Shown here piece by piece: positions 50,193 to 62,193 of a stretch of 64,000 nucleotides of DNA. The notes below the pieces were generated by a model. The model did no database searches. It saw only the letters and a program-made list of their open reading frames with translations, and had not been told where the DNA came from. The DNA is from Bacteroidota bacterium (GTDB lineage Bacteria > Bacteroidota > Bacteroidia > Bacteroidales > VadinHA17). Made by a program: the position numbers and the translations under genes. The stretch is from assembly GCA_012729475.1 (NCBI GenBank), contig JAAYDB010000003.1, positions 472 to 64,471 of the forward strand, in the 5' to 3' direction. The first letter of the stretch is position 1; each line of letters starts with the position of its first letter.

Positions 50193-52136
50193 ATGATGCA
50201 AACGAAATACATATTTACTATCTTCATTTTCTCCTGTGTTCTATTATCAAAAATTGTATCACAGGACTTACATTCAAGGTCAAACAAAGCTTTAAAGGCA
50301 TATAATGATGGCTTGAGATCATACGAGTATGTGGATTATGAAAACGCGGAGATTTATTTTAAACTGGCTTTGTCGTATGATGAAAATTTTCTTGAATCGT
50401 ATATGATGCTTGGAGAATTATACAGCAGGCAGAATAAGTATGCTCCTGCTGTCGAAAATTATAAAACTGCTTTTAATATCGATTCTTCTTTTTACAGGCC
50501 TGCTTATTTTAATCTTGCCAATGCTGAGATGATGATAGAAGATTATTCCGGAGCACTCCTTCATTACAAAGCCTATCTCCGAAGTGATAAGACTTCTGAA
50601 AAAAACAGACTTCTTGCGATAAAGAACATAAAAAACTGTGAGTTTGCCATACAAGCTATACTGGAACCTGTTTCTTTCAATCCGGTAAGTGTTGGCAATA
50701 ATATTAATACAAAAAGTGATGAATACTGGCCTTCTATTACAGCCGACGGAAAGACTCTTATGTTTACAAGACAGGAGCTTATTGGGCATTATTCATTACC
50801 ATTCAGGACGGCACAGGAAGATTTTTATATCAGTTACAGGTCAGATGATGGGTGGACGCAGGCTGTAAATGCCGGAGCTCCTCTCAATACCAGTCAGAAT
50901 GAAGGAGCTCAAACCTTATCTTCCAGCGGTAATTACATGTTTTTTACAGCTTGTGACCGGCAAGGAGGATTTGGAAGCTGTGACATCTATTTCTCAGCTT
51001 ACAGGAATGGTAAATGGACAATACCGTACAATCTGGGGCCACCGATAAATACAAGCGCATGGGAATCAACACCTTCAGTGAGTGCTGATGGCTCTATGCT
51101 TTTCTTTTCCAGCAACAGACCCGGAGGCCTGGGAGGAAAAGATTTGTGGTATACTGTTTTGAATGAAAAAGGGATATGGTCAGAACCGGTTAATCTTGGT
51201 GAAATTATTAACACAGAGGGAGATGAAATGTCTCCGTTCATTCATTTCGATGGAAAAACACTCTATTTTGCGTCAGATGGCAGACCTGGTATGGGGGGCT
51301 TTGATATATGGATGAGCAGAATGAAGGATGATAGTACCTGGACTGAACCCCGGAATCTGGGATATCCCATCAATACAGCCAGTGATGATATGGGCCTGGT
51401 AATAGAGGCAAGCGGGCAAAATGCTTATTTTTCGTCAAAGCGTGACAATGAGAACAGGAAAGATATATTTTTCTTCAAACTTGATGAATCAGTAAGACCA
51501 AATGCTGTGGCCTATCTTAGCGGCACTGTAATTGATAAGGAAACAGGCAGATCCCTTATGGCTGAATATGAGTTGATCAATCTGTCTACAAATCGTGTGA
51601 CAATGAGAAATACGACAGATGAAAATGGCAATTTTCTGATATGTCTGCCCTCAGGATTTAATTACGGAATCAATATTTCAAACCCTGGTTATCTTTTTTA
51701 TTCTGAGAATTTTATGTTTGAAGGAGAACATTCGGTGATGGAGCCACTCATAAAGAAAATTTATCTTAATCCGCTTAAAGTTGGTGAGAAGATGCTTCTT
51801 TCAAATGTTTTTTATGAGATTGATTCATGGGAACTGAAAAAAGAATCTGTAGCTGAATTAAATAACCTTGTGGAATTACTTGCTTCAAATAAAGGCCTTA
51901 TTGTGGAAATAGGTGGACATACTGATTCAACCGGAACCGATGAACATAATCTGATATTATCAGAGAGAAGAGCATTGTCTGTGGTCGATTATCTCGTTAA
52001 TAACAAGATATCAGTGACAAGACTTACATATAAAGGCTATGGCAACACTTCTCCCATTGGTGACAATGTTACTTATGAAGGAAGAAGGATGAACAGGAGG
52101 ACTGAAGTTAAAATCACAGGAACGAATAAAGAATAA
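50193..52136 (+). CDS. OmpA family protein with TPR, PD40 and OmpA-C domains (PorE-like architecture)
   Basis: N-terminal TPR; repeated 'NLGxxINT' PD40 units; 'GHTDSTG...LSERRA...NRRTE'. Confidence 0.88.
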   Translation: MMQTKYIFTIFIFSCVLLSKIVSQDLHSRSNKALKAYNDGLRSYEYVDYENAEIYFKLALSYDENFLESYMMLGELYSRQNKYAPAVENYKTAFNIDSSFYRPAYFNLANAEMMIEDYSGALLHYKAYLRSDKTSEKNRLLAIKNIKNCEFAIQAILEPVSFNPVSVGNNINTKSDEYWPSITADGKTLMFTRQELIGHYSLPFRTAQEDFYISYRSDDGWTQAVNAGAPLNTSQNEGAQTLSSSGNYMFFTACDRQGGFGSCDIYFSAYRNGKWTIPYNLGPPINTSAWESTPSVSADGSMLFFSSNRPGGLGGKDLWYTVLNEKGIWSEPVNLGEIINTEGDEMSPFIHFDGKTLYFASDGRPGMGGFDIWMSRMKDDSTWTEPRNLGYPINTASDDMGLVIEASGQNAYFSSKRDNENRKDIFFFKLDESVRPNAVAYLSGTVIDKETGRSLMAEYELINLSTNRVTMRNTTDENGNFLICLPSGFNYGINISNPGYLFYSENFMFEGEHSVMEPLIKKIYLNPLKVGEKMLLSNVFYEIDSWELKKESVAELNNLVELLASNKGLIVEIGGHTDSTGTDEHNLILSERRALSVVDYLVNNKISVTRLTYKGYGNTSPIGDNVTYEGRRMNRRTEVKITGTNKE

Positions 52137-52164
52137 ATGGCCGTATACTGGTGATACGGCCATT
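52136..52164. terminator. Hairpin terminator between convergent genes
   Basis: AATGGCCGTAT-actggtg-ATACGGCCATT, 11-bp stem; T-rich tail on the minus strand. Confidence 0.7.
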
Positions 52165-52218
52165 CCGGTCTCATGCTAGAGGGTGAGACAGACATTGATA
52201 TTGCATGGAAAAAACTTA

Positions 52219-53043
52219 TCAGATAGCGATCGTGGAATTAAAATATTTATTTATAGATAAATCTGAACTATCTGCAACTTTCACAGGAATGGAAAAATAA
52301 ATCCCTGAACTGGTTAGTCCGTTGCATTCAATCCGGATAGATCCGTTAAGAACACTTATCAGTTTTCTGGCCAATATAATGTTAATGGCTGTAACTGTAT
52401 CATTATACTTCCCGAGTGATTGGTTAACATCCTCAGTATGAAGAAATTCCTTGCATTTAAAATATCCCTGACCGGAGTCCAGAACATAAAAAGTCATCTG
52501 GTTATCCCTGAAATAGTAACCAATTTTTATGTACCCCGATTTAGTATTATTCAATGCACTCTGAAAAAGACTACGAATAACCCTGAATACCCTGGCGGAA
52601 TCAATAATGATATCGACAGCTTCGCAAAAACTTGTTTCAGACACCAATTCGACATTTTTGTTGACTTCTTTCTTTAATATTTCCCTGAATTCAGAAAGAA
52701 GCTCATCAAGAAATTTATTGAGTTTGCAAATTTTGTAATTGGGTTTTGATTTCACTGTATCAATAATTGCTGAATCGCAAAAGTTATCAAATAGACCAAT
52801 TAATTGTTCACAGGAAGCCAGTATCTGGTTGGTGAATTCTTTTCGTTCTGTTTCATCACATCCATCCTGATTCATGAGAAATGAGAAAGCCACTATTGCA
52901 TTCATGTGTGTCCTCAATTCATGTGACATTCCTGCTAAAACTGTAGGACAATTGACCATAGTATTACCAAAATTATTATCCTGATCATTTACAGTATGAT
53001 CAACAGCATTCTTATCCACACTATTTTCAGGATACTTTTCCAT
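52219..53043 (-). CDS. Sensor-less histidine-kinase-like protein (HisKA plus degenerate HATPase)
   Basis: H-box 'MSHELRTHMNAI'; G1 'DSGQG'; N and G2 boxes degenerate. Confidence 0.75.
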   Translation of the reverse strand: MEKYPENSVDKNAVDHTVNDQDNNFGNTMVNCPTVLAGMSHELRTHMNAIVAFSFLMNQDGCDETERKEFTNQILASCEQLIGLFDNFCDSAIIDTVKSKPNYKICKLNKFLDELLSEFREILKKEVNKNVELVSETSFCEAVDIIIDSARVFRVIRSLFQSALNNTKSGYIKIGYYFRDNQMTFYVLDSGQGYFKCKEFLHTEDVNQSLGKYNDTVTAINIILARKLISVLNGSIRIECNGLTSSGIYFSIPVKVADSSDLSINKYFNSTIAI

Positions 53044-53091
53044 CTGCCGGGAAATAGATTTGGTACTAAAACACTAAATCGACTATATTAA

Positions 53092-53853
53092 TTATTTGAT
53101 CTTTCTCAGGATTTTTCTGGCTTCGTTGCGATAAAGACTGCCGGAATTCTTTATGGTTTTAAGTTGATTAACAGCTTTCTCTTTTTCGTCTGTTTTGATG
53201 TAACAAAGAGCAAGATACCATTGAGCATCTTCTATGAAAAAGTTATCATTATCGTCTATCACCTCTGTAAAGGACCTCTGAGCTATAGGATAATTTTTCT
53301 GTTCAAAATTTGATACTCCATAGAGCATTCTTGATTCCATATAATGAGGATCGCTTGAGATAACTTTGCTAAAATAAACTGCAGCATTCCTGTAATCACT
53401 TACATTATAGTAATCGACAGCAGTTATGTAATCTGAATTTACATTTGTGACATCATCAAACGACCTGGACGGGGTGTTCGTCTGTATTTGGTATGTCGTA
53501 TAATAATCATTGAATAATTCATCAGATTGCACATTTCTGCCTTTGAATAGAACAAGGCTTCCGATAAGCATGAATCCTGCAATTACAGCAGCATACCTGA
53601 AAAAATGATTTTTCCCGGTATGTTTTTTCTGCGAAAATGTTGCGGCTTTTTTCTTTTCTATTTCTGAAAGTTTATTCCGCAACTGAAGTACATCACGGTT
53701 CCTGAGAACCATATCGGTATTTCTCCGGAGAGCTACTTCTTCCTGAAGCATCCTGTTGCCACTGAGTTCTTTCTCGAACCAGATCCTTTCAGCTTCATTC
53801 ATATCTCCGGCATTATACCTTTCAATGTAATAAGAAAAGTCAATTGTCTTCAT
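53092..53853 (-). CDS. Single-pass membrane TPR protein, probable anti-sigma factor
   Basis: N-terminal 'IERYNAGDMNEAERIWFEKEL' anti-sigma-like helices; TM 'YAAVIAGFMLIGSLVLF'; C-terminal TPRs ('AQWYLALCYIK'). Confidence 0.7.
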   Translation of the reverse strand: MKTIDFSYYIERYNAGDMNEAERIWFEKELSGNRMLQEEVALRRNTDMVLRNRDVLQLRNKLSEIEKKKAATFSQKKHTGKNHFFRYAAVIAGFMLIGSLVLFKGRNVQSDELFNDYYTTYQIQTNTPSRSFDDVTNVNSDYITAVDYYNVSDYRNAAVYFSKVISSDPHYMESRMLYGVSNFEQKNYPIAQRSFTEVIDDNDNFFIEDAQWYLALCYIKTDEKEKAVNQLKTIKNSGSLYRNEARKILRKIK

Positions 53854-54056
53854 AGTCCTTTATATATTATTATTTTAAGTATTCCATATCTAAGCAGCTA
53901 TAAATTAATTATATAGCTATAATTTATTTTGCAGTATAATATTATTATACGTATTTTTTTTCAGACTGTTTACGGTCTGTGAACTCAGAACTGCAAATAA
54001 ACCGGAAGTATCAGAAAATTATGCCTGTCAGAAAAGACAGATACTTTTTATTGGTG

Positions 54057-54218
54057 TCAGATTTTGATAGGTGGGTTACACGGTTTGACAATGGGCTCAG
54101 GAAGAAGTTCATCATGTTCGCCAGATCCTCCACGAACATTAATCATTTCTTTTGTTGAAAGAGCAAATTCAGTAAACATGTTTCTTGTCTTGTCGAAATT
54201 CAGGGTTCTTGTTTTCAT
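54057..54218 (-). CDS. Double-glycine-leader precursor peptide, 53 aa: MKTRTLNFDKTRNMFTEFALSTKEMINVRGG|SGEHDELLPEPIVKPCNPPIKI
   Basis: Translated by hand: ATG at 54218-54216, TGA at 54059-54057; 'LSxxEMxxVxGG' leader; A-rich 5' context; C39 exporter 4 kb away. Confidence 0.85.
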   Translation of the reverse strand: MKTRTLNFDKTRNMFTEFALSTKEMINVRGGSGEHDELLPEPIVKPCNPPIKI

Positions 54219-54467
54219 AATTTTGGGTTTAATTATTGTTACTAATTCAGGGAAATTTCTTTTAGTTACAATACTACATGTCGTATACCCTTAATTTGTG
54301 ACACAAAAAAAGTTAAAAAAATTTAAAATCAAAAAAAATATTCAGAAAATCAGTTACTTATATATAAAATAAAGTATTAAAAGGAAGAAAATTTGATTTT
54401 AATGTTAAATTTTGAGAAATTTCGATTGTAAAAACGTATACAGTCATTGTACATACTCTGCAATATT

Positions 54468-57400
54468 ATGCAATTCCGAACACTCTTCTGCTTTTTTCAG
54501 GTTTTTATGTGTTTAATGACGTTTTCTGTTTTTCAGGCTGATGCTTCTGTTTCTTCAAAACAACATTTCAGATTATTACCTGATGAAGAGAACACAGAAA
54601 ATTATCATACAGAAGCTATCGGGAAAATAAATAAACGGATAATTAGTCTTGTTTCGCTTAATGACAGAGATGGGTTGCTTAATCTTGCCGATTCATTACG
54701 TATGGCGATTGACAATGAGGTTACTGACAGTGCGACAACAGCAGAGTACTACTATTATATTGGGGTCTGTTATTTATTAACAGGCAGGTATGCTAAGGCA
54801 ATATCAGGTCTGAAACAATCTTTAACCCTGAAGAAGGCTCTTGACATAGTTGATGATAATTATCTTAAAGCCATATACAATATTGGTGTTTCCTATAATT
54901 TTCTGGGTGATTATATTCAGGTGGGTAATTACATGCTTGATTATATCAATCTGGCAACTGATTATAGCAGTTCTGCTGAAAGGGAAATTGCCGAAGCGTA
55001 TTCAGCACTTATAGGCACAGCAGTGGAATGTAAAGACTTTGAGAATTTCACTGACTATACAAATAGGATACAGAGTATTCTGAGCAACAACCGGAATACC
55101 ATAACAGGAGATGATCTGATACGTCTTTATATCAATATAGGTGTTGGTTTTATAAGAATGGGTGATTATTCAAAGAGCAGGGTTTATCTTGAACAGGCAG
55201 AATCGTTATTCCGGAATAGCAGAAAGGAAGCAGATGCAGATTATATCAACCTTATCAATAGTCTTGCAGTTACTTACAGTTATCTTGGTTTGCCGGAAAA
55301 AGAAGAAGAATACTATAGAAAAGGCATAGAGTTTGCTCTAAAGGAAAATTCTTTCCTTGGTTTCAATATGGTCAACAGTTATGCTATTAAGCTAGGTAAC
55401 TCAGGCAATGCAGACAGAGGAGAAAAATTGTTGGCTCAAATGGTTGAAAGAGCAGGTCACTGGTATGGTACAGACTCCCGGTACTATATTGAAGTACTTA
55501 ATAATTACGCAATTTATCTTCTTTCTTATAAAAAAGACATTGAAAATGCTATTAGATTTTTCCGTATCTGTAGCGCTTATCTGGATAAAAACAAAGAAGA
55601 TAGCGGTTTGCGCTTTCCGGTAATGAATGGTTATGCCAAGGCTTTATACAATGGGGGGCAGCCTGAAAAAGCCCTGGAAAAGATTCAGGAGTTGCTTTTC
55701 CAGGGCTCTGATACCCGTGAAGATGAAGGCTTATGGATCAACCCTTCTCCTGAATCATTGAATGCAGACAGGTCAGTGTTGACAACCCTTATGCTGAAAT
55801 ATGAGATATTACGCAATATGTATTCTTCGTCAGAGGATACAGACATTCTCATAGCAGCAGCCAACACATCTGAACTTATTGTCTTTGTAGTGGATAATAT
55901 AAGAATAAATATAAGTGAAGAAGAGAGCAGGTTAATACTCGGTGACCGTTACAGAGATGCATATCTGAGAGCTATACAGGATTTTGAATTATGTTATAGA
56001 ACAACGGGAGAACAGGAATATCTTGAGAAGGCTTTCACCTACAGCGAAAAGAGTAAGGTTGCAGGCTTGCTGGCAGCTACAAGAGAGTTAAATGCCATAC
56101 AGCTCAATATTCCGGAAACAACAGCACAGTTTGAAAAACAACTACAGAGAGAAATAGGCTTTTATAATGCCAGGATCGCTGCAGAAAATGAAAAAAGTAA
56201 TCCGGACATGGCAGCTGTCAATCTGTGGAAAGAAAAACTTCTGCAGACAATCAGTGTTCGTGATTCACTTGTCTTAACATTCAGAAGAGATTATCCGGGT
56301 TATTTCACTATGAAATACCATATCCATACCCCGGATATGAATGATATACCTTCGGTTATTGGTCGAAATTACAATTATCTGAGTTATGTTATTTCAGATA
56401 AAATGTTATATATATTTGTTGTGAACCGCAGACATAAAGAACTATTATCTTTTCATACTGATTCTCTTTTTGCGGAAAAAATTGCAGAGTTTCAGAATCT
56501 GTTGTCTTCTGCAGAGCTTCATACGGATGCAAGACTGAAATTTGAAAACTACAATCTACTGGGCCATCATCTTTATAAGACGCTGATAGAACCAGTGGAG
56601 AAGTATCTGATTTCAGATAATCTGCTTATTTCGCCTGACAATTTCCTTTCTTACCTTCCTTTTGAAACTCTTCTTACTTCCGTTTACACCGGTAATGAAA
56701 TACTGTACAGGAAACTGAAATATCTCATGAATAATTATAATATATCTTATTCATATTCAGCAACATTTCTCCAGGAAGTTTTAACCAGGCAGTATAGGAA
56801 CAGCCATAGTCTTGTGGCATTTGCCCCTGTTTACAAAAAAGCTCTTCATCTTGATTCCATTATGTCGCTGCGACATAGCACCAGCAGAGTGTTCTATGAT
56901 CTGCCTTATGCCAGGCAGGAAGCCCAATATATATCCGGTCTTTCAGGAGGCAGTGTATATCTTAACGATGAGGCCATGGAGTCTGTATTTAAAGAGAAAG
57001 CAGGAGAATATGATATCATTCACCTGGCAATGCACACTTATTTGAATGATGTCAATCCTATGAATTCAGCAATGATTTTCATGCAGGATGCTGATCCGTC
57101 AGAAGACGGCTTGCTTCATACTTATGAGGTTTATGGCATTCAGCTAAAAGCACGGATGGTAGTCTTAAGTTCCTGCAATACCGGAACTGGAAAACTGTCG
57201 AAAGGAGAGGGGATTTTAAGTCTGGCAAGAGGCTTTCTGTATTCCGGAAGTCAATCAGTGGTAATGTCAATGTGGGATATTGATGATAAATCCGGTACTG
57301 ACATAATGAAATCTTTTTATGACAATCTGAGTAAGGGTATGTCAAAAAGCGCAGCATTAAGGAAAGCAAGGTCACAATATCTGAAAAATGCCAGCCAGCT

Positions 57401-57548
57401 GAAATCACATCCCTACTTCTGGTCAAGTCTTGTTGTGTATGGGGCTAATGATTCTGTTTTTACATCAAAAAGAAATATCCTGGTATCGATCCCGTTACTA
57501 CTTATCATATCATTAACAGTTTATTTTTTGTATCGGAGATACTCCTGA
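54468..57548 (+). CDS. TPR-CHAT (caspase/HetF-like) protease with signal peptide and C-terminal TM anchor
   Basis: TPR array; 'AFTYSEKSK'; 'SPDNFLSYLPFETL'; catalytic His in 'HLAMH' and Cys in 'VLSSCNTG'; 'SMWDIDD'; 'HPYFWS'; C-terminal hydrophobic helix followed by RR. Confidence 0.9.
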   Translation: MQFRTLFCFFQVFMCLMTFSVFQADASVSSKQHFRLLPDEENTENYHTEAIGKINKRIISLVSLNDRDGLLNLADSLRMAIDNEVTDSATTAEYYYYIGVCYLLTGRYAKAISGLKQSLTLKKALDIVDDNYLKAIYNIGVSYNFLGDYIQVGNYMLDYINLATDYSSSAEREIAEAYSALIGTAVECKDFENFTDYTNRIQSILSNNRNTITGDDLIRLYINIGVGFIRMGDYSKSRVYLEQAESLFRNSRKEADADYINLINSLAVTYSYLGLPEKEEEYYRKGIEFALKENSFLGFNMVNSYAIKLGNSGNADRGEKLLAQMVERAGHWYGTDSRYYIEVLNNYAIYLLSYKKDIENAIRFFRICSAYLDKNKEDSGLRFPVMNGYAKALYNGGQPEKALEKIQELLFQGSDTREDEGLWINPSPESLNADRSVLTTLMLKYEILRNMYSSSEDTDILIAAANTSELIVFVVDNIRINISEEESRLILGDRYRDAYLRAIQDFELCYRTTGEQEYLEKAFTYSEKSKVAGLLAATRELNAIQLNIPETTAQFEKQLQREIGFYNARIAAENEKSNPDMAAVNLWKEKLLQTISVRDSLVLTFRRDYPGYFTMKYHIHTPDMNDIPSVIGRNYNYLSYVISDKMLYIFVVNRRHKELLSFHTDSLFAEKIAEFQNLLSSAELHTDARLKFENYNLLGHHLYKTLIEPVEKYLISDNLLISPDNFLSYLPFETLLTSVYTGNEILYRKLKYLMNNYNISYSYSATFLQEVLTRQYRNSHSLVAFAPVYKKALHLDSIMSLRHSTSRVFYDLPYARQEAQYISGLSGGSVYLNDEAMESVFKEKAGEYDIIHLAMHTYLNDVNPMNSAMIFMQDADPSEDGLLHTYEVYGIQLKARMVVLSSCNTGTGKLSKGEGILSLARGFLYSGSQSVVMSMWDIDDKSGTDIMKSFYDNLSKGMSKSAALRKARSQYLKNASQLKSHPYFWSSLVVYGANDSVFTSKRNILVSIPLLLIISLTVYFLYRRYS

Positions 57549-58090
57549 TATTCAGGGTCTTTTGCTACTATTTTCATGAGAGCTTCTTTTGAAAGGTATT
57601 TCTTTCTCCTGGCATAAGTTTCATTCTTCAGATTCATCCTTTGTGCTATTTCCTCATAAGTGAATCCTTCATAAAAAAGATTTAATACGGTTTGTAAATC
57701 GGGTTTAAGCTGTTTAAATGCCCTGCTTATTATTCTTTCAAACATCCTTTCATTATCTTCATCAGGATTGTTATTCTCATCCATGAGGTCAGGTTCCAGC
57801 TCTATAGTCTTCCTTTTTTTCCTAAGCTGTGAATTCCATATATTTCTGACTATTCCAAAAAAGTAACCTTTCAGATCAGTGGTAAGATTCAGGGTATCAC
57901 CCGTGATCTGATTATATAAAACAATCACAGAGTCCTGGAATACGTCTGAAACATCATCAGGAGAACCGTTGTTTTTAAGGATGTGCTTACTAACCATTTG
58001 ATAATAATTATCATAAAGCCAGTTCAGCGTTTTGTCATCCTGGTTTCGTATTCCTTCTATTATCTTGCTATCTGAAACTCTCTTAAACAA
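57521..58090 (-). CDS. ECF-type RNA polymerase sigma factor
   Basis: TTG start; region 2 'DDVSDVFQDSVIVLY...LKGYFFGIVRNIW'; region 4 'LNLFYEGFTYEEIAQRM'. Confidence 0.88.
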   Translation of the reverse strand: MFKRVSDSKIIEGIRNQDDKTLNWLYDNYYQMVSKHILKNNGSPDDVSDVFQDSVIVLYNQITGDTLNLTTDLKGYFFGIVRNIWNSQLRKKRKTIELEPDLMDENNNPDEDNERMFERIISRAFKQLKPDLQTVLNLFYEGFTYEEIAQRMNLKNETYARRKKYLSKEALMKIVAKDPEYQEYLRYKK

Positions 58091-58116
58091 TCCTGTACGG
58101 ATATTAAATCAATTAC

Positions 58117-58124
58117 CAAAGATA
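58117..58124 (-). promoter_or_regulatory. Bacteroidota primary-sigma -7 element (TATCTTTG) for the ECF sigma gene
   Basis: Matches TAnnTTTG; 26 nt upstream of the start codon. Confidence 0.55.
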
Positions 58125-58247
58125 GTATTTCCCTGAATGAAAAATATTTGATCCGATCTTTGACTGCTATTTTAAAGAAAATTGTTCTATTTTCTAAAAA
58201 AAATATAAATATCTTTACTGTGAATAAATTATATTTCCGGATATTTT

Positions 58248-60434
58248 ATGTCATTCCCTTTTGTAAAACAACCTGATGCTATGGATTGCGGGCCTGCATG
58301 CCTCAAAATGATAGCCGGGTTCTATAAGAAATCTTTTTCCTTCGAAACAATCCGGAAAAAATGTTATATAACAAGAGAAGGAGTCTCTTTTCTGGGACTA
58401 TCAGAAGCAGCTGATAATCTGGGCTTTCGTACTCTCGGTGTAAAGATAACTTTTGAAATGCTGGCAGAGAAAATTCCTTTGCCCTGTATTATCCATTGGC
58501 GTCAAAAGCATTTTGTTGTGGTCTATAAAATAAAAAATGACAAAATCTGGGTTGCCGATCCTGCCTTTGGTCTGATCAAATATAATAAGGAAGAATTTGT
58601 AAAAAACTGGACATCAACTTTGTCTGATGGACAACCAGTAGGTTTAGTTCTTATTGTGGAACCAACTCCTGCTTTGTTCGAAAAAGAAAATGAAGAGGAG
58701 AGAACAGATGGATTCAGGTTTTTATTTAAATATTTCCGTCTTTATAAAAAATACTTTTTTCAACTGATACTTGGTTTATTAATAGGGAGTGTAATACAAT
58801 TACTGATACCTTTTCTTACTCAGTCGATTATTGATATAGGGCTGAATAACAGCGATCTCAATTTTATTTATCTTATCCTTTTTGCTCAATTAGCCCTGGT
58901 TATAGGAAGGATGTCTGTTGAATTTATAAGAGGGTGGTTGCTTCTCCACATCGGTACGCGTGTAAATGTGTCTGTTATTTCAGGCTTCCTTCATAAACTT
59001 ATGTCGCTGCCTGTTGCATTTTTTGATACAAAGCTGACAGGAGATATCCTTCAAAGAATAGAAGATAATAAACGTATTGAGGAATTTCTTACATCAGCTT
59101 CTCTGAGCATACTGTTCTCATTTTTTAACCTCTTCATTTTTGGAATAGTCCTTGCAATCTACAATATTAAAATACTGATAATTTTTATAACCGGTTCGCT
59201 TTTGTATATTACATGGGTGTCTTTATTTATGAAGTCACGGGCGAGGATTGATCATCAGCGATTTAAGCAGATGTCGGAAGCCAATAGCAAACTGATTACC
59301 ATTATTAACGGAATGCAGGAGATCAAGCTGACACAGAGTGAAACCAGTAAACGCTGGGATTGGGAAAATCTCCAGGCATCTCTATTCAGTGTGAAAACGA
59401 AGGGGTTGGGAATAGTACAGTATCAGACTGCCGGAGCTACTTTTATTAATGAAGTTACTAATATACTAATCACTATTGTTGCTGCTACCGCTGTTTTAAA
59501 AGGCAATATGACTCTCGGTATGATGCTTGCCGTGCAATTCATTATCGGTCAGCTGAACGTGCCTGTCAGTCAGATCATAGGGTTCTTCAGATTATCACAG
59601 GATGCTAAGATGAGTCTTGACAGACTCTCAGAGATCCACTATATGGACGAAGAAGAGATAAATACGGAAATGAAAGTCAGAAAACTGCCTGAAAAAAAGG
59701 ATATTTTCATAAACAATGTATCATATCAGTACGAAGGTCCTCATTCTCCTTTTGCTCTTAAAGATGTAGACCTATATATTGAAGACAGAAAAAATACGGC
59801 TATTGTTGGTGTCAGTGGAAGCGGAAAAACAACACTCCTGAAATTGCTGCTTGGCTTTTATCAACCCATAAATGGTGAAATTCTTGTTGGGGATACGAAA
59901 CTTTCAGGGCTGAGTTTAAAAATATGGAGAGAAAAAACAGGAGCAGTAATGCAGGATGGCTTTCTTTTTCCGGAATCTATTGCACGTAACATAGCTCCGG
60001 GAACAGAAGATATCGATCAGGAAAAACTGACAAAAGCTGTGGAAGTTGCCAACATAAAGAGCTTTATCGAATCATTGCCTTTGGGATATAATACCAAAAT
60101 AGGTATTAACGGACATGGATTGAGCGAAGGCCAGAAACAAAGACTTCTCATTGCCAGAATCATATATAAAGATCCGGATATTATTATTTTTGATGAAGCG
60201 ACAAATTCACTTGATGCAAATAATGAAAAGGTAATAGTGGAAAATCTTTCTTCCTGTTTCGAAGGTAAAACAGTGATTATCGTTGCTCACCGATTGAGTA
60301 CTGTTAAGAACGCCGACAAAATTGTAGTTCTCGATGGCGGGCGTGTAATTGAAACAGGTAATCACAATTCTCTGATAGAAATGAGAGGCGCCTACTATAA
60401 TCTTGTAAAAAATCAACTGGAGCTTGGTAATTAA
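58248..60434 (+). CDS. Peptidase-containing ABC transporter (C39 PCAT, SunT/LagD-like)
   Basis: C39 'QPDAMDCGPACL', 'HFVV' and 'ADP'; TM domain; Walker A 'GVSGSGKT'; 'LSEGQKQR'; 'FDEAT'; 'AHRL'. Confidence 0.95.
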   Translation: MSFPFVKQPDAMDCGPACLKMIAGFYKKSFSFETIRKKCYITREGVSFLGLSEAADNLGFRTLGVKITFEMLAEKIPLPCIIHWRQKHFVVVYKIKNDKIWVADPAFGLIKYNKEEFVKNWTSTLSDGQPVGLVLIVEPTPALFEKENEEERTDGFRFLFKYFRLYKKYFFQLILGLLIGSVIQLLIPFLTQSIIDIGLNNSDLNFIYLILFAQLALVIGRMSVEFIRGWLLLHIGTRVNVSVISGFLHKLMSLPVAFFDTKLTGDILQRIEDNKRIEEFLTSASLSILFSFFNLFIFGIVLAIYNIKILIIFITGSLLYITWVSLFMKSRARIDHQRFKQMSEANSKLITIINGMQEIKLTQSETSKRWDWENLQASLFSVKTKGLGIVQYQTAGATFINEVTNILITIVAATAVLKGNMTLGMMLAVQFIIGQLNVPVSQIIGFFRLSQDAKMSLDRLSEIHYMDEEEINTEMKVRKLPEKKDIFINNVSYQYEGPHSPFALKDVDLYIEDRKNTAIVGVSGSGKTTLLKLLLGFYQPINGEILVGDTKLSGLSLKIWREKTGAVMQDGFLFPESIARNIAPGTEDIDQEKLTKAVEVANIKSFIESLPLGYNTKIGINGHGLSEGQKQRLLIARIIYKDPDIIIFDEATNSLDANNEKVIVENLSSCFEGKTVIIVAHRLSTVKNADKIVVLDGGRVIETGNHNSLIEMRGAYYNLVKNQLELGN

Positions 60435-60442
60435 AAGCAGCA

Positions 60443-61732
60443 ATGAAAAACAGGGTAAATGAAATAATATATTCCGAACCTGTTCAGGAAATAATATCAA
60501 ATCCTCCTGCAAAAATAATCAGATGGGGAACTGCCCTTATTGCATTTGTTTTTATTCTTCTTATAACTCTTTCCTGGATAATAAAATATCCCGATGTTGT
60601 TCCTGCACCTGTCGAGATCACCACAGTTAACCCTCCGGTTACTCTTGCAACCAAAATAACAGGACGAATTAATAAGCTTATGGTTGAAGATGGTGAAAAA
60701 GTAATGCCCGGACAGTTGCTTGCAGTTATGGAAACAGCTGCTTCATTGTCTGATATAGAGACTCTTAAGTCTATAGTTGATACAATTTCCAAACCTTCTA
60801 TTCTTTTTCCGGAATCCATCCCTCTGTTTTCACAACTGGGAGAGATACAGAGTTTTTATTCATCTTTTATGAAAGCTCTTGCAGATTATAATTCTTACGT
60901 TAATAACGATTATTATGGCAGTAAAATAGTCTCAATAACAGAAGAAATAACAGCTCTTCAGGAGTATATAGAAAGAATGAAGGCCAAAGAACGAATTATC
61001 ACAGATAATCTTAAACTGGAATATAATAAATATATTAGAGATTCAGGTCTTTATGTTAACAAAGTGTTTTCTGAGAGTGAATTTGAACTATCAAAAAAGT
61101 CATATAACAACAGTAAGCTGGAACTCCAACAGGTTCGACTCGAGCAATCTCAAAATATTATTTCTCTGGCTGAGAAAAACCAGTTGCTTCAGGATTACCG
61201 GATAAAGAGGGAAGAGGAAAGGCAAAATCTGGCTTCACTCCTGGATGAGACATACCTTAATCTGAAAGCTCAGATTAATATCTGGAGAAATAATTATTTG
61301 CTTATAACACCTGTTGAGGGGACAGTTTCCTTTACAAAGTTCTGGAGTGAAAATCAGTCTGTGGTTAAAGATGAACCTGTAATCAGTATAGTACCTCTCG
61401 AGCCAGGTGATTTCGTAGGAAGAATTAATCTCAGAATGCAGCGTTCCGGAAAAGTTACACCAGGTCAGACAGTCAATATTAAACTTAGTGGCTATCCTTA
61501 TCTGGAATATGGTATGGTAAGAGGTGTTGTGAAATCCAAATCGCTGGTCCCGGCCAGTGATGCCTATATAATTGAAATAGACTTCCCTTCCGGTCTTACA
61601 ACTCTTTACGGGAAAAAGCTTGATTTTACCCAGAATATGCAGGGAACAGCCGAGATCCTCACAGATAACCTCAGACTACTGCAAAAAGTTATAAATCCTT
61701 TTAGATATCTGGTGACTAAAAACAGGACCTGA
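60443..61732 (+). CDS. HlyD family membrane fusion protein
   Basis: 'SEPVQEII..PP..IIRWG'; TM; coiled coil; 'YPYLEYG'; 8 nt after the PCAT. Confidence 0.92.
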   Translation: MKNRVNEIIYSEPVQEIISNPPAKIIRWGTALIAFVFILLITLSWIIKYPDVVPAPVEITTVNPPVTLATKITGRINKLMVEDGEKVMPGQLLAVMETAASLSDIETLKSIVDTISKPSILFPESIPLFSQLGEIQSFYSSFMKALADYNSYVNNDYYGSKIVSITEEITALQEYIERMKAKERIITDNLKLEYNKYIRDSGLYVNKVFSESEFELSKKSYNNSKLELQQVRLEQSQNIISLAEKNQLLQDYRIKREEERQNLASLLDETYLNLKAQINIWRNNYLLITPVEGTVSFTKFWSENQSVVKDEPVISIVPLEPGDFVGRINLRMQRSGKVTPGQTVNIKLSGYPYLEYGMVRGVVKSKSLVPASDAYIIEIDFPSGLTTLYGKKLDFTQNMQGTAEILTDNLRLLQKVINPFRYLVTKNRT

Positions 61733-61736
61733 TAGT

Positions 61737-61916
61737 TTATTTACCTGAATAAGGTTCATAGTTATCGTCGCTGCTATCTGACTTGAATAACGATGATGAC
61801 TGATCGTGCTTATCACTATCAATTTCCGAATGTTTCTTTTTTGAATACTTTTTGTATAATGATAATCCCGATATAATAAAAAGCGTAATTATCAGTATTA
61901 ATTCAGAGGTGCTCAT
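61737..61916 (-). CDS. Small single-TM protein, 59 aa: MSTSELILIITLFIISGLSLYKKYSKKKHSEIDSDKHDQSSSLFKSDSSDDNYEPYSGK
   Basis: Translated by hand; below the track cutoff; hydrophobic N-terminus, Lys cluster, acidic tail. Confidence 0.6.
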   Translation of the reverse strand: MSTSELILIITLFIISGLSLYKKYSKKKHSEIDSDKHDQSSSLFKSDSSDDNYEPYSGK

Positions 61917-62193
61917 GTTAATATTTTTTAATCCTGATCAGTATTTTGTGCAGAAATCAAAGATATTATTAATATTTCAATTTCTGAAAATACGAAACTC
62001 AAATTGATACGACATCATCTCAGTGCCATTTACAGCTTCTTTTTGAATACCTTCCGGGGATGTCTTCAGGGCATTTATTTAAAGAAAACTTTGACCATAA
62101 TTAAATATTCAATATTTTCGTAGCTTGAAAAATTCAAAGTGTGATTAATGATGTATTATATCATACTAGAGCTGAAATTAGAAAGGATTGATT

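What the first reader, a model, noticed from the sequence alone, without database searches (positions are those of the whole stretch)
52219..61732. Candidate peptide-CHAT protease-anti-sigma-ECF signalling system (quorum-sensing-like)
Seen: seven contiguous genes encoding a degenerate kinase, a membrane TPR protein, a GG-leader peptide, an exported TPR-CHAT protease, an ECF sigma, a C39 PCAT and HlyD, with no RiPP-modifying or immunity genes. Established: C39 PCATs cleave GG leaders during export. TPR arrays bind peptide signals (RRNPP family). CHAT proteases cleave regulatory partners elsewhere: type III-E Csx29 cleaves the sigma-binding Csx30, and cyanobacterial HetF cleaves PatU3. Inference: the exported 22-aa core binds the TPRs of the periplasmic CHAT protease, which cuts the anti-sigma's periplasmic TPR domain and frees the ECF sigma. 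The sigma then drives peptide and anti-sigma transcription as an autoinduction loop. I know of no described peptide signalling system in a Gram-negative organism with a caspase-like receptor.
Basis: partly seen in the sequence, partly recalled or inferred. Interest (0 to 1): 0.93.

Follow-up and report, generated by a model that had tools for sequence, protein, structure and literature searches.

The report
Peptide-linked ECF sigma–CHAT protease circuit
A gene cluster conserved in uncultured Bacteroidales joins a small exported peptide to a membrane sigma/anti-sigma switch that carries a caspase-like protease, and it probably forms a self-amplifying peptide signalling loop of a kind not yet described.

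Summary
All seven genes are real and lie at the stated coordinates. They encode a HisKA protein with a degenerate ATPase domain, a single-pass TPR protein, a 53-aa GG-leader peptide, a TPR-CHAT protein with an intact His/Cys dyad, an ECF sigma, a C39 PCAT and HlyD. The cluster is inherited vertically at one chromosomal site throughout a large uncultured Bacteroidales family. The link between peptide and sigma/TPR/CHAT also recurs in a 27%-identical paralogous system and in other families of the order. In related loci the TPR protein sits directly after the sigma gene, so it is read as the anti-sigma. It carries an invariant Arg about 25 residues outside the membrane, a candidate cleavage site. 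A bipartite ECF-type promoter, unique in the genome, precedes peptide–anti-sigma–kinase. RNA contigs from four metatranscriptome studies cover exactly this operon and stop just downstream of the motif. Sigma-driven peptide and anti-sigma expression is therefore supported. Peptide-less relatives place a T9SS cargo gene under the same promoter type, and one large genus lacks HlyD. The peptide could therefore be only an output, or act within the periplasm. Verdict: a real, expressed, uncharacterised regulatory module, and a new variant combining DdvA-like and ComC/ComAB-like logic.

The parts
52135..52165 (-). Terminator-like hairpin after the kinase-like gene; likely 3' end of the peptide operon
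   Evidence: 12-pair stem with a T-rich tail. RNA contigs of X4 and X6 end at 52164.
52219..53043 (-). Soluble HisKA protein with a degenerate ATPase domain (sensorless kinase-like); last gene of the peptide operon
   Evidence: HisKA 38.2 bits. HATPase_c 14.1 bits, below the 26.4 cut-off. H-box His, N box and DxGxG are conserved, and the G2 box is replaced, in 64 orthologues. No TM segment.
53092..53853 (-). Single-pass TPR protein, read as the anti-sigma: cytoplasmic residues 1-83, TM 84-106, periplasmic linker and TPRs
   Evidence: TPR hits. TM found in 71 of 72 orthologues. Homologues lie directly after the sigma gene on the same strand in 16 of 20 loci of other families. A protein-language-model lead points to zf-HC2/RseA_N/RskA_N clusters at 0.80-0.85.
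53461..53466 (-). Codons of R130-S131, a candidate site-1 cleavage site in the juxtamembrane linker
   Evidence: R130 is invariant in A2 (46 sequences). An Arg followed by Ser/Gly/Ala lies 23-28 residues past the TM in 71 of 72 genus sequences and in 40 of 42 cross-family sequences. The Arg itself is present in all the exceptions printed.
54024..54041 (-). Weak hairpin just after the peptide stop codon (possible attenuator)
   Evidence: 6-pair stem found by the pattern scan only.
54057..54218 (-). GG-leader peptide gene: 31-aa leader and 22-aa core ending PPIKI
   Evidence: ORF. Found in 69 of 70 genus loci with room. 70 distinct sequences aligned. The leader fits the L(-12)/E(-8)/hydrophobic(-7)/V(-4) consensus.
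54274..54304 (-). Bipartite ECF-type promoter-like motif: GTGTCACAAA (54304..54295), an 11-nt spacer here (12 nt in some orthologues), then CGACATGTAG (54283..54274)
   Evidence: Both boxes are conserved while the spacer varies, across the genus and in other genera of the family. The motif occurs once in the 2.97-Mb genome. RNA contigs of four studies stop at 54248-54259.
54447..57548 (+). TPR-CHAT (caspase-like) protease with an N-terminal signal-like segment and a C-terminal TM anchor. The probable ATG start is at 54468
   Evidence: CHAT 199.5 bits. H859/H863/C910 invariant. Hydrophobic ends in 67 of 76 sequences (N-terminus) and 75 of 76 (C-terminus), with a K/R-rich tail.
57521..58090 (-). 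ECF sigma factor, monocistronic
   Evidence: TIGR02937 68 bits against a cut-off of 42.9. Sigma70_r4_2 30.8 bits.
58117..58124 (-). TAnnTTTG-like box (TATCTTTG) upstream of the sigma gene, suggesting a housekeeping-type promoter
   Evidence: Conserved block GGAAATA.TATATTTG in 77 aligned upstream regions. That TAnnTTTG is the Bacteroidota -7 element is recalled knowledge.
58248..60434 (+). Peptidase-containing ABC transporter (PCAT) with an intact C39 triad
   Evidence: Peptidase_C39 129.9 bits, plus ABC_membrane and ABC_tran. Q8/C14/H88/D104 spacing equals that of LahT. 72-87% identical across the genus.
60443..61732 (+). HlyD-family periplasmic adaptor
   Evidence: HlyD_3 27.4 bits. TIGR01843 86 bits, below its cut-off. 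N-terminal TM at 22-54.

Best explanation
This is a dedicated regulatory cassette with a five-gene core and an exporter.

What is supported by evidence:
- The ECF sigma (57521-58090) appears to be made from a housekeeping-type promoter.
- It is held at the membrane by the single-pass TPR protein (53092-53853), which acts as its anti-sigma.
- Free sigma transcribes one operon from the unique promoter at 54274-54304. That operon holds the GG-leader peptide, the anti-sigma and a sensorless, degenerate histidine-kinase-like protein.

What is inferred:
- The TPR-CHAT protein faces the periplasm and is tethered by a C-terminal helix. It acts as the site-1 protease and cuts the anti-sigma at the invariant Arg130, about 25 residues outside the membrane.
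- An RseP-type protease then finishes the job and releases sigma.
- The PCAT removes the leader after Gly-Gly and moves the short, acidic and proline-rich core to the periplasm. With HlyD and an unlinked outer-membrane channel it moves the core out of the cell. The core has a conserved free C-terminus.
- The core acts back on the periplasmic TPR domain of the anti-sigma and/or of CHAT to promote cleavage. This gives a peptide autoinduction loop with built-in negative feedback from the co-transcribed anti-sigma. The kinase-like protein is the output branch.

In effect this is a split version of the fused TPR-CHAT anti-sigma DdvA, wired to a ComC/ComAB-style peptide and exporter.
For: Gene content and active-site residues.

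The TPR protein is read as the anti-sigma because its homologues follow the sigma gene directly on the same strand in 16 of 20 loci from other families. It has an N-in single-pass topology. There is also a weak lead to anti-sigma N-terminal domains.

Linkage of peptide with sigma/TPR/CHAT beyond vertical inheritance:
- 20 of 20 loci from other genera of the family hold a peptide. One of them is rearranged and lies outside the PorE flank (L144).
- A 27%-identical paralogous set (peptide, CHAT, TPR protein, sigma, kinase) exists in this genome and in a complete genus-mate.
- 5 of 20 loci from other families of the order hold a peptide.
- On a CHAT tree, every sub-clade of the order-level clade except one 14-row clade contains peptide-linked rows.

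Loss pattern: the five core genes are absent together in 9 of 9 resolvable genus-mates that lack CHAT.

Promoter:
- The GTCACAAA / N11-12 / GACATGTA motif is conserved with a variable spacer upstream of the peptide.
- It is unique in the genome.
- In other families the motif [A/T][A/T]ACCTTT precedes the sigma gene in 13 of 17 loci, always 30-42 nt from the estimated start. About 0.55 such hits are expected by chance.
- The same motif class precedes GG peptides in L152, L159, L143 and L187.

RNA:
- A single 2095-nt contig with no mismatch spans 52164-54258.
- Contigs of four studies stop at 54248-54259. CHAT, sigma and PCAT are only sparsely covered.
- Nine further RNA runs hold 0.62-0.66 of the 53000-55000 query. 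That share equals the operon part of the query, 1259 of 2001 nt.

Other points:
- Invariant Arg at the right distance from the membrane.
- An M50 (RseP-type) protease is present in the genome.
- Precedent for a periplasmic TPR-CHAT domain proposed to act as site-1 protease of an anti-sigma: DdvA (passages of PMC11506125).
Against: - No result here shows peptide binding, CHAT activity or anti-sigma cleavage.
- Mutual information between peptide positions and columns of the anti-sigma, CHAT and the other cluster proteins did not exceed that of three flanking control proteins.
- A 14-row clade of relatives has no peptide. In L153 and L156 it carries the same promoter type in front of a T9SS-secreted protein and the short kinase. 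The triad can therefore work without a peptide, and the peptide occupies the position of an exported output.
- HlyD is missing in 4 of 4 loci of a genus in which 61 of 64 genomes carry the system.
- No outer-membrane channel gene lies in the cluster.
- From general knowledge, a 1.4-2.4 kDa peptide would not re-enter through ordinary porins. Intercellular sensing by periplasmic TPRs therefore needs an unexplained uptake step. A cell-autonomous periplasmic loop fits as well.
- PCAT-HlyD persists in 4 of 9 genomes that lost the core, and other PCATs exist in genomes without any such CHAT.
- No fused anti-sigma-CHAT form was found.
Confidence: 0.45

Rival explanations
1. Output-only model. The sigma/anti-sigma/CHAT triad senses some other periplasmic or surface cue. 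The peptide is merely one of its exported products, in the way the T9SS cargo is in related loci. It could be a bacteriocin-like, adhesion-modulating or interspecies peptide, and it does not feed back on the triad.
For: Peptide-less relatives place the same promoter type before a T9SS-secreted protein and the short kinase. The promoter and RNA evidence fits an output as well as an autoinducer. There is no covariation between peptide and receptor candidates.
Against: The core is only 12-22 residues, acidic and proline-rich. It is strongly conserved within the genus and not diversifying. No immunity gene is present. The promoter motif is unique in the genome, so the predicted regulon would consist only of the peptide, its own negative regulator and a kinase-like protein. 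The peptide travels with the triad in a paralogue that has no exporter nearby.
Confidence: 0.28
2. Inhibitor model. The exported peptide is a pseudosubstrate or TPR-blocking inhibitor of the CHAT protease, analogous to securin acting on separase. It is co-expressed with the anti-sigma as a second arm of negative feedback.
For: The peptide is co-transcribed with the anti-sigma, the known negative regulator. Separase, a TPR-CHAT relative, is controlled by a pseudosubstrate inhibitor (mentioned in passages of PMC11506125). All leaders carry [R/K]GG and the anti-sigma site is R-[S/G/A]. This resemblance is unexplained.
Against: The basic residue lies in the leader, which an intact C39 domain should remove in the cytoplasm. 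No motif of the core recurs in the anti-sigma or CHAT. The high steady-state RNA of the operon in four studies is easier to reconcile with positive feedback.
Confidence: 0.12
3. Coincidental neighbours. A class-II bacteriocin-type peptide and export cassette simply lies next to an unrelated ECF sigma module at a conserved chromosomal site.
For: Within the family the whole region, including the housekeeping flanks NT5-QueE-PorE, is syntenic. Synteny there alone proves nothing. PCAT-HlyD can persist without the core.
Against: The peptide is interleaved with the regulators, lying between the anti-sigma and CHAT genes, and shares an operon with the anti-sigma. The peptide-triad link recurs in a paralogue, in a rearranged locus and in other families. 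An ECF-type promoter precedes the peptide. The orthologous PCAT-HlyD was kept in 4 of 4 core-less genomes that still have the paralogous system. It was lost in 4 of 4 genomes that have none. One genome (G521) has the paralogue but no PCAT found.
Confidence: 0.05
4. Phage-defence regulator like DdvA-DdvS. The triad senses a phage-derived periplasmic protein and switches on a defence output.
For: DdvA is the only characterised TPR-CHAT anti-sigma, and it controls a CBASS-CRISPR island (abstract and passages of PMC11506125).
Against: No PADLOC model matches any of the six proteins apart from generic ABC ATPase similarity. No defence genes lie in the cluster. The predicted regulon is the peptide operon only. 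Csx29 and type III-E sigma models score far below their cut-offs (16.6 against 300, and 27.1 against 100).
Confidence: 0.05

Closest known systems
DdvA-DdvS of Myxococcus xanthus (transmembrane TPR-CHAT anti-sigma with its ECF sigma; PMC11506125, abstract and passages read)
   Same: An ECF sigma is held by a single-pass anti-sigma. A large periplasmic TPR-CHAT module has a His-Cys dyad. CHAT is proposed to cut a juxtamembrane linker as site 1, followed by RseP. The activating signal is unknown.
   Different: Here the anti-sigma (253 aa, TPR only) and the TPR-CHAT protein (1033 aa, with its own C-terminal anchor) are separate proteins. No zf-HC2/CHCC motif was detected. No fused form was found. 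Sequence similarity to the PDB chain 8rot_B 'CHAT domain-containing protein' is not significant (E=1.6). That this chain is DdvA is my guess. The cluster carries a GG peptide and a PCAT, and the predicted regulon is the peptide operon, not a defence island.
ComC/CSP-ComAB-ComDE and related class-II bacteriocin pheromone circuits of Gram-positive bacteria (recalled; GG-leader and PCAT biochemistry from passages of PMC6363468)
   Same: A short unmodified peptide has a double-glycine leader. A C39 PCAT works with a HlyD-like accessory protein. The peptide gene lies behind a promoter controlled by the circuit it belongs to.
   Different: This is a Gram-negative envelope. The candidate receptor is a TPR anti-sigma and/or a caspase-like protease, not a membrane histidine kinase. 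The only kinase-like protein is soluble, sensorless and degenerate in its ATP lid. The transducer is an ECF sigma, not a response regulator.
RseA-DegS-RseP sigma-E pathway of E. coli (recalled)
   Same: Peptides with a free C-terminal motif activate a periplasmic site-1 protease. That protease cuts the anti-sigma about 30 residues outside the membrane, and an M50 protease then releases the sigma. Here the peptide has a strictly conserved free C-terminus, and the invariant Arg lies 23-28 residues from the TM.
   Different: The protease is a TPR-CHAT cysteine protease, not a PDZ serine protease. The peptide is a dedicated gene product exported by a PCAT, not the tail of a misfolded porin.
Type III-E CRISPR craspase: Csx29 (TPR-CHAT), Csx30 and an RpoE-like sigma (PMC10028731 seen in search listing and abstract only)
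   Same: A TPR-CHAT protease cleaves a sigma-binding partner.
   Different: That system is cytoplasmic, RNA-guided and Cas7-11 associated. The NCBIfam Csx29 and III-E sigma models score far below their cut-offs here. No cas genes are present.
RRNPP peptide receptors (recalled)
   Same: A TPR array acts as receptor for a short, unmodified, often proline-containing signalling peptide encoded next to it.
   Different: RRNPP receptors are cytoplasmic and need peptide import. Here the TPR domains are predicted to be periplasmic, and the output is sigma release by proteolysis.

Membership tests
ECF (group 4) sigma-70 factor | Only sigma-2 and sigma-4 regions; passes a curated ECF model | tested here: met
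   TIGR02937 68 bits against a cut-off of 42.9. Sigma70_r4_2 30.8 against 25.7 and Sigma70_ECF 23 against 21.1. 189 aa.
Peptidase-containing ABC transporter (PCAT/AMS) | N-terminal C39 domain with the catalytic Cys (not a C39-like domain), plus ABC TMD and NBD | tested here: met
   Peptidase_C39 129.9, ABC_membrane 101.5 and ABC_tran 106.1 bits. Q8/C14/H88/D104 are spaced as LahT Q21/C27/H101/D117. The equivalog models TIGR03796 and TIGR01193 score below their cut-offs, so no named subfamily is claimed.
Double-glycine leader peptide | Leader ending Gly-Gly with Leu(-12), Glu(-8) and hydrophobic residues at -7 and -4 | tested here: met
   L20, E24, M25, V28, G30 and G31 in the window peptide. 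L20, M25, G30 and G31 are invariant, and E24 is at least 90% conserved, in 46 sequences. The consensus comes from passages of PMC6363468.
TIGR04149 rSAM-modified RiPP (GG_sam_targ_CFB) | Passes the model and is paired with a radical-SAM maturase | tested here: not met
   12.6 bits against a cut-off of 25. The only radical-SAM gene nearby is QueE-like and remains in genomes that lack the cluster.
CHAT (clan CD, caspase-like) protease | CHAT domain with a conserved His-Cys dyad | tested here: met
   PF12770 199.5 bits, covering 286 of 289 profile positions. H859/H863 and C910 are invariant in 15 of 15 sequences. Catalytic activity itself was not tested.
DdvA-type anti-sigma | A zinc-binding anti-sigma domain, a TM helix and a periplasmic TPR-CHAT module in one polypeptide | tested here: not met
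   Two separate genes. No zf-HC2 hit for residues 1-85 even at E up to 10. No fused relatives among longer proteins or among the best 150 of 391 strong profile hits.
DdvA-type anti-sigma | Separase/craspase-like fold of the periplasmic domain | not testable with these tools
Class I anti-sigma factor (anti-sigma domain binding sigma-2 and sigma-4) | N-terminal helical domain that binds the cognate sigma; gene adjacent to the sigma gene | tested here: inconclusive
   Adjacency is met in 16 of 20 related loci but not in the window itself. No Pfam family. Only a sub-threshold language-model lead and a 16.7-bit zf-HC2 hit in a 497-aa relative. Binding could not be modelled.
Histidine kinase | HisKA with the phospho-acceptor His, plus a functional HATPase_c with N, G1 and G2 boxes | tested here: not met
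   HisKA passes. HATPase_c reaches 14.1 bits against 26.4. The G2 box is replaced by NDTxxAIN in the consensus of 64 orthologues, while the rest is conserved.
Type III-E craspase (Csx29/Csx30/sigma) | Passes the Csx29 model and is associated with Cas7-11 | tested here: not met
   NF041237 scores 16.6 bits against a cut-off of 300, and NF041236 27.1 against 100. No cas genes lie in the cluster. No PADLOC hit.
Peptide quorum-sensing system | The secreted peptide is sensed by the producer population and induces its own synthesis in a density-dependent way | not testable with these tools
   Only the wiring is shown: an exporter, an ECF-type promoter before the peptide, and a strongly transcribed operon. 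Sensing and density dependence need experiments.

The most novel reading that the evidence does not exclude
A family of Bacteroidales peptide autoinduction circuits. A PCAT-exported, unmodified, proline-rich peptide is read in the periplasm by the TPR domains of an anti-sigma and a caspase-like protease. It triggers Arg-specific site-1 cleavage of the anti-sigma and release of an ECF sigma. This would be the first peptide signalling pathway that runs through regulated proteolysis by a CHAT protease. It would also supply the missing kind of signal for DdvA-like TPR-CHAT anti-sigma systems.
Probability: 0.35. Interest if true: 0.9.

Novelty: new variant of a known kind. Interest (0 to 1): 0.78.

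Why it matters
- Peptide-based cell-cell signalling is textbook in Gram-positive bacteria. It is almost unknown in Gram-negatives and undescribed in Bacteroidota.
- The activating signal of the only studied TPR-CHAT anti-sigma (DdvA) is still unknown.
- This cluster offers a compact, testable candidate for both problems. It has a defined peptide, a defined exporter, a single predicted promoter target, a predicted cleavage residue (R130) and a predicted catalytic residue (C910).
- It is not a curiosity of one genome. The anti-sigma-like family has 391 representatives at E<=1e-30 in a 50%-clustered library.
- The CHAT orthologue or a close homologue is present in 161 of 201 sampled genomes of the family.
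- The operon is among the most strongly covered stretches of the locus in metatranscriptomes of anaerobic digesters from four studies.
- Public annotations call the anti-sigma only 'TPR repeat protein' or 'hypothetical'. Recognising it as an anti-sigma would re-annotate a widespread family.

Tried and rejected
1. Covariation. I computed mutual information between 12 variable peptide positions and every column of the anti-sigma, CHAT, sigma, PCAT, HlyD and kinase alignments. Three flanking proteins served as the phylogenetic null. No protein stood out. The anti-sigma had 0 columns above the control maximum at every position. CHAT and sigma had a few at low-entropy positions. This is inconclusive and was not used.

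2. Rosetta-stone search for an anti-sigma fused to CHAT or to the sigma. The word-based search of longer proteins returned 4 proteins of 496-497 aa with TPRs only. The best 150 of the profile search are 120-514 aa long. The roughly 500-aa forms carry an unassigned N-terminal extension.

3. Sequence search of solved structures. With the whole-protein profile only TPR proteins matched. With the CHAT domain alone nothing was significant.

4. Rfam gave nothing near a gathering score. PADLOC gave no defence model.

5. Motif mimicry. No segment of the cluster proteins resembles the peptide core.

6. A generic GG-leader scan found no peptide next to CHAT in 20 loci from other classes of the phylum, or in 15 of 20 order-level loci. 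Short ORFs are easy to miss.

7. Literature. The searches were:
- 'CHAT domain' + ECF + anti-sigma
- extracytoplasmic function + CHAT + Bacteroidetes + classification (0 papers)
- 'CHAT domain' + double-glycine (0 papers)
- CHAT/PCAT/sigma factor/Bacteroid (the RiPP-mining paper PMC10352776 has no whole-word 'CHAT')
- extracytoplasmic function + CHAT + TPR
- ECF54
- double-glycine + Bacteroidetes + quorum sensing + peptide
None describes this arrangement. A review passage links CHAT genes to the group ECF54 (PMC8999054), and the reclassification paper places that group in Actinobacteria (PMC7826278). The main text of the ECF reclassification paper has no 'CHAT' (PMC7826278). Its supplementary group descriptions could not be seen and may mention such a context.

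8. RNA. The parts of the locus without RNA contig cover (most of CHAT, sigma, PCAT and HlyD) are not evidence of silence. No DNA run was laid as a control.

9. The IQ-TREE-type build of the CHAT tree did not finish in time. The FastTree result was used. L145 (fragmented CHAT) and rows matching fewer than 500 profile positions were left out.

- Complex prediction (intended chains were anti-sigma residues 104-253 and the peptide, both as alignments)
- Structure prediction

Full report
The ORF list and the profile searches give seven genes at 52219-61732.
- A soluble HisKA protein. Its ATPase domain scores 14.1 bits against a cut-off of 26.4, and its G2 box is replaced.
- A 253-aa protein with one TM segment (residues 84-106) and C-terminal TPRs.
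- A 53-aa ORF with a 31-residue double-glycine leader and a 22-residue core.
- A 1033-aa TPR-CHAT protein with hydrophobic N- and C-terminal segments and a basic tail. Its His/Cys dyad is invariant in 15 of 15 sequences.
- An ECF sigma (TIGR02937, 68 bits against a cut-off of 42.9).
- A PCAT whose Q8/C14/H88/D104 have exactly the spacing of the LahT oxyanion Gln and Cys-His-Asp triad (passages of PMC6363468).
- A HlyD-family adaptor.

The leader has L(-12), E(-8), M(-7) and V(-4), which is the published recognition pattern. No modifying or immunity gene lies inside the cluster.

**Distribution.** The CHAT protein has hundreds of full-length relatives annotated only as 'CHAT domain-containing protein'.
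- A scan of species-representative genomes returned 185 loci, of which the best 80 were kept. All 80 show the same gene order, together with the housekeeping flanks NT5-QueE-PorE upstream and a DUF349 gene downstream.
- Of the 58 loci with enough sequence on both sides, 52 have all seven genes, 5 lack only the kinase-like gene, and 1 lacks kinase and peptide.
- Whole-genome searches show that these 80 loci belong to the window's own GTDB genus. There 52 of 64 sampled genomes have the CHAT orthologue. Other genera of the same family carry 33-36%-identical versions (161 of 201 family genomes at E<=1e-100).
- The 20 loci I fetched from those other genera again show the cluster at the same chromosomal site. 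Two differ. One sits at a contig end (L143). One is rearranged and elsewhere (L144: sigma-HlyD-PCAT-kinase-TPR | CHAT | sigma).

Synteny within the family is therefore mostly vertical inheritance and by itself says little about function.

**Evidence for linkage that does not depend on that inheritance.**
1. The window's genome holds a second, 27%-identical set on contig C17: a PAS-HisKA-HATPase kinase, a sigma, a TPR protein, CHAT and a GG peptide. The contig ends there. In a complete genus-mate the orthologous set is peptide-CHAT / TPR-sigma / kinase, with no PCAT within 8 kb.
2. In 20 loci from other families of the order, the sigma and the TPR protein are adjacent on the same strand in 16. 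CHAT is next to them. A short HisKA kinase lies within 2-3 kb in six.
3. GG-leader ORFs with acidic, proline-rich cores lie beside CHAT or the TPR gene in 5 of those 20 loci (L152, L155, L159, L168, L171). The HMM E-values range from 1e-5 to 4e-2, and the weaker ones rest on the leader motif and position. PCAT-HlyD is adjacent in 2 of them (L159, L171).
4. On a FastTree of 67 CHAT proteins, the order-level clade (49 rows, support 99) splits into several sub-clades. All contain peptide-linked rows except one 14-row clade with none. CHAT proteins from other classes of the phylum, at 25-32% identity, have no detectable peptide.

**Natural deletions.** Twelve genus-mates lacked the CHAT orthologue in the family search.
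- In 5 the whole cluster is gone, and PorE abuts the DUF349 gene.
- In 4 the five genes from kinase to sigma are gone but PCAT-HlyD remains.
- In 3 the locus could not be resolved.

No genome keeps part of the five-gene core. All 4 genomes that kept PCAT-HlyD still have the paralogous CHAT system. Of the 5 that lost everything, 4 have no such CHAT at E<=1e-30. One (G521, 360 contigs) has the paralogue but no PCAT at E<=1e-80. This fits a five-gene core served by a shared exporter. That would also explain why the PCAT is the most conserved protein of the locus (72-87% identity, against 43-65% for CHAT). The genomes are related, the numbers are small, and contiguous genes can be lost in one event. 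I count this as consistent and not as proof.

**The TPR protein as anti-sigma.**
- Its position directly after the sigma gene in related loci supports this reading.
- So do its N-in single-pass topology and its highly conserved cytoplasmic N-terminus.
- Pfam finds no family for that N-terminus.
- A language-model search places it nearest to zf-HC2, RseA_N, RskA_N and NepR clusters, but at 0.80-0.85, below the level the tool calls more than a lead.
- The most conserved feature of the periplasmic linker is an Arg followed by Ser, Gly or Ala, 23-28 residues past the membrane. It is found in 71 of 72 genus sequences and 40 of 42 sequences from other genera, families and paralogues. The Arg itself is present in the exceptions.
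- From general knowledge, several clan-CD proteases cut after Arg, and RseP-type proteases need a short periplasmic stub. R130 is therefore a concrete candidate site-1 position.
- An M50 protease gene is present in the genome, as in all 14 control genomes.

**Promoter evidence.**
- Upstream of the peptide, 72 aligned regions share two nearly invariant boxes separated by a variable spacer of 11-12 nt: GTGTCACAAA and CGACATGTAG. The same boxes are found in the other genera of the family.
- The strict pattern occurs once in the 2.97-Mb genome.
- In the other families the sigma gene is preceded by [A/T][A/T]ACCTTT, typically GGTTACCTTTT, then N11-13, then GAAT(T/A)AA. This holds in 13 of 17 loci, always 30-42 nt from the estimated start. 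The pattern density in those loci predicts about 0.55 hits. This looks like the usual autoregulated ECF promoter.
- The same motif class lies in front of the GG peptide in L152, L159, L143 and the paralogue L187. It also lies in front of the short kinase and a T9SS-secreted protein in L153 and L156.
- In the peptide-type systems the sigma gene itself carries a TAnnTTTG-like box. From memory, this is the Bacteroidota housekeeping -7 element.

The inferred wiring is a constitutive sigma and a sigma-dependent peptide-anti-sigma-kinase operon. This rests on motif comparison only.

**RNA.** A search with window 53000-55000 found 24 runs, 18 recorded as RNA, from 16 studies of digesters, bioreactors and sludge. 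Nine RNA runs hold 0.62-0.66 of the sampled words. The operon part of that query is 1259 of 2001 nt, or 0.63. Four runs from four studies were laid on 51500-62000.
- X4 gives one 2095-nt contig, 52164-54258, with no mismatch. It covers the kinase, anti-sigma and peptide genes.
- X5, X6 and X11 give contigs that stop at 54259, 54248 and 54255.
- These ends lie 15-26 nt downstream of the second box (54283..54274) and about 40 nt upstream of the peptide ATG.
- The other end coincides with a 12-pair terminator-like hairpin at 52165..52135.
- Cover of CHAT, sigma, PCAT and HlyD is sparse.

Caveats given by the tool apply. Contigs show neither strand nor true ends. Holders were chosen with part of this stretch. 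No DNA run was laid. Still, the uneven cover argues against DNA carry-over, and the common stop in four studies is at least a weak hint of a transcript start at the predicted promoter.

**What remains open.** The complex and structure predictors were closed, and covariation gave nothing above background. Three observations weigh against a simple quorum-sensing reading.
- Peptide-less relatives work with the same triad and put an exported T9SS protein where the peptide gene stands.
- One large genus has no HlyD at the locus, since PCAT is followed directly by DUF349.
- Re-entry of a 1.4-2.4 kDa peptide into the periplasm is unexplained.

I therefore commit to the split-DdvA, peptide-feedback mechanism at 0.45. 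The output-only reading stands at 0.28 and an inhibitor reading at 0.12.

**Comparison with known systems.**
- The closest described system is DdvA-DdvS. It has the same parts fused into one anti-sigma and an unknown signal.
- The peptide and exporter half resembles ComC/ComAB.
- The logic of a C-terminal peptide activating a site-1 protease resembles DegS-RseA.
- The cluster fails the membership tests for DdvA-type (not fused, no zinc motif), for craspase, for TIGR04149 RiPPs and for a bona fide histidine kinase.
- Seven literature searches found no description of this combination. Supplements of the ECF classification paper could not be read.

I rate it a new variant of known kinds. It would become categorically new if the peptide-CHAT-anti-sigma step is shown.

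Noticed in passing
L054:8686-9598 (minus strand): One genus-mate carries five tandem, identical copies of the peptide gene spaced 196 nt apart, where other genomes have one. L047 has two diverged copies, and L143 and L159 have two each.
   Followed up: partly
L152:7457-13548: One locus of another family has both layouts at once: a sigma-TPR operon behind a TAnnTTTG-like box, and a second TPR paralogue in a peptide-TPR-kinase operon behind the ECF-type motif. A LanC-like gene (152.7 bits) lies 1.7 kb further on.
   Followed up: partly
L153:12293-13543 and L156:12486-13787, L157:11289-12536: In peptide-less relatives a roughly 420-aa protein with an SdrD_B/prealbumin-like domain and a T9SS C-terminal sorting domain lies between CHAT and the short kinase. 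In L153 and L156 it is preceded by the same ECF-type motif as the sigma gene.
   Followed up: partly
window 54219-54273 (minus strand, 5' leader of the peptide operon): A block GAATTACCCTGAATTAGTA.CAATAATTAAA in the predicted 5' untranslated region is conserved at 60-90% per column across 72 loci. No Rfam match, and the block was not folded.
   Followed up: no
G000 contigs C17 (end), C128, C135 (end), C11: The assembly breaks at PCAT genes. C128 starts inside a second PCAT followed by HlyD. C39-domain fragments sit at the ends of C135 and C11, both with an odd low-complexity insertion. Whether the C17 paralogous system adjoins one of them cannot be told.
   Followed up: partly
peptide leaders in all loci; anti-sigma residues 129-132: Every leader found has Arg or Lys at -3 ([R/K]GG), which is unusual for GG leaders. 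The invariant anti-sigma site reads x-R-[S/G/A]-x, most often VRSG in other families. The resemblance is unexplained.
   Followed up: no
L011, L021, L022, L024, L048 (and L009): A sub-lineage of the genus lacks the kinase-like gene but keeps the other six. Its peptides form a distinct group (leader MKNLNS..., core ...SEPI(I/M)LPP(T/S)PPIKI).
   Followed up: no
L182:8312-11433 and L181: In G668 the CHAT gene is in three pieces while its neighbours are intact, so it may be a pseudogene. In G728 every gene of the region is fragmented, which looks like assembly error.
   Followed up: no
P0266, P0277, P0241 and about 35 others: Many relatives of the anti-sigma are about 500 aa long, with a 250-residue N-terminal extension that matches the profile's N-terminal part repeatedly. 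One of them is from the cultured Tangfeifania diversioriginum and has a sub-threshold zf-HC2 hit.
   Followed up: partly
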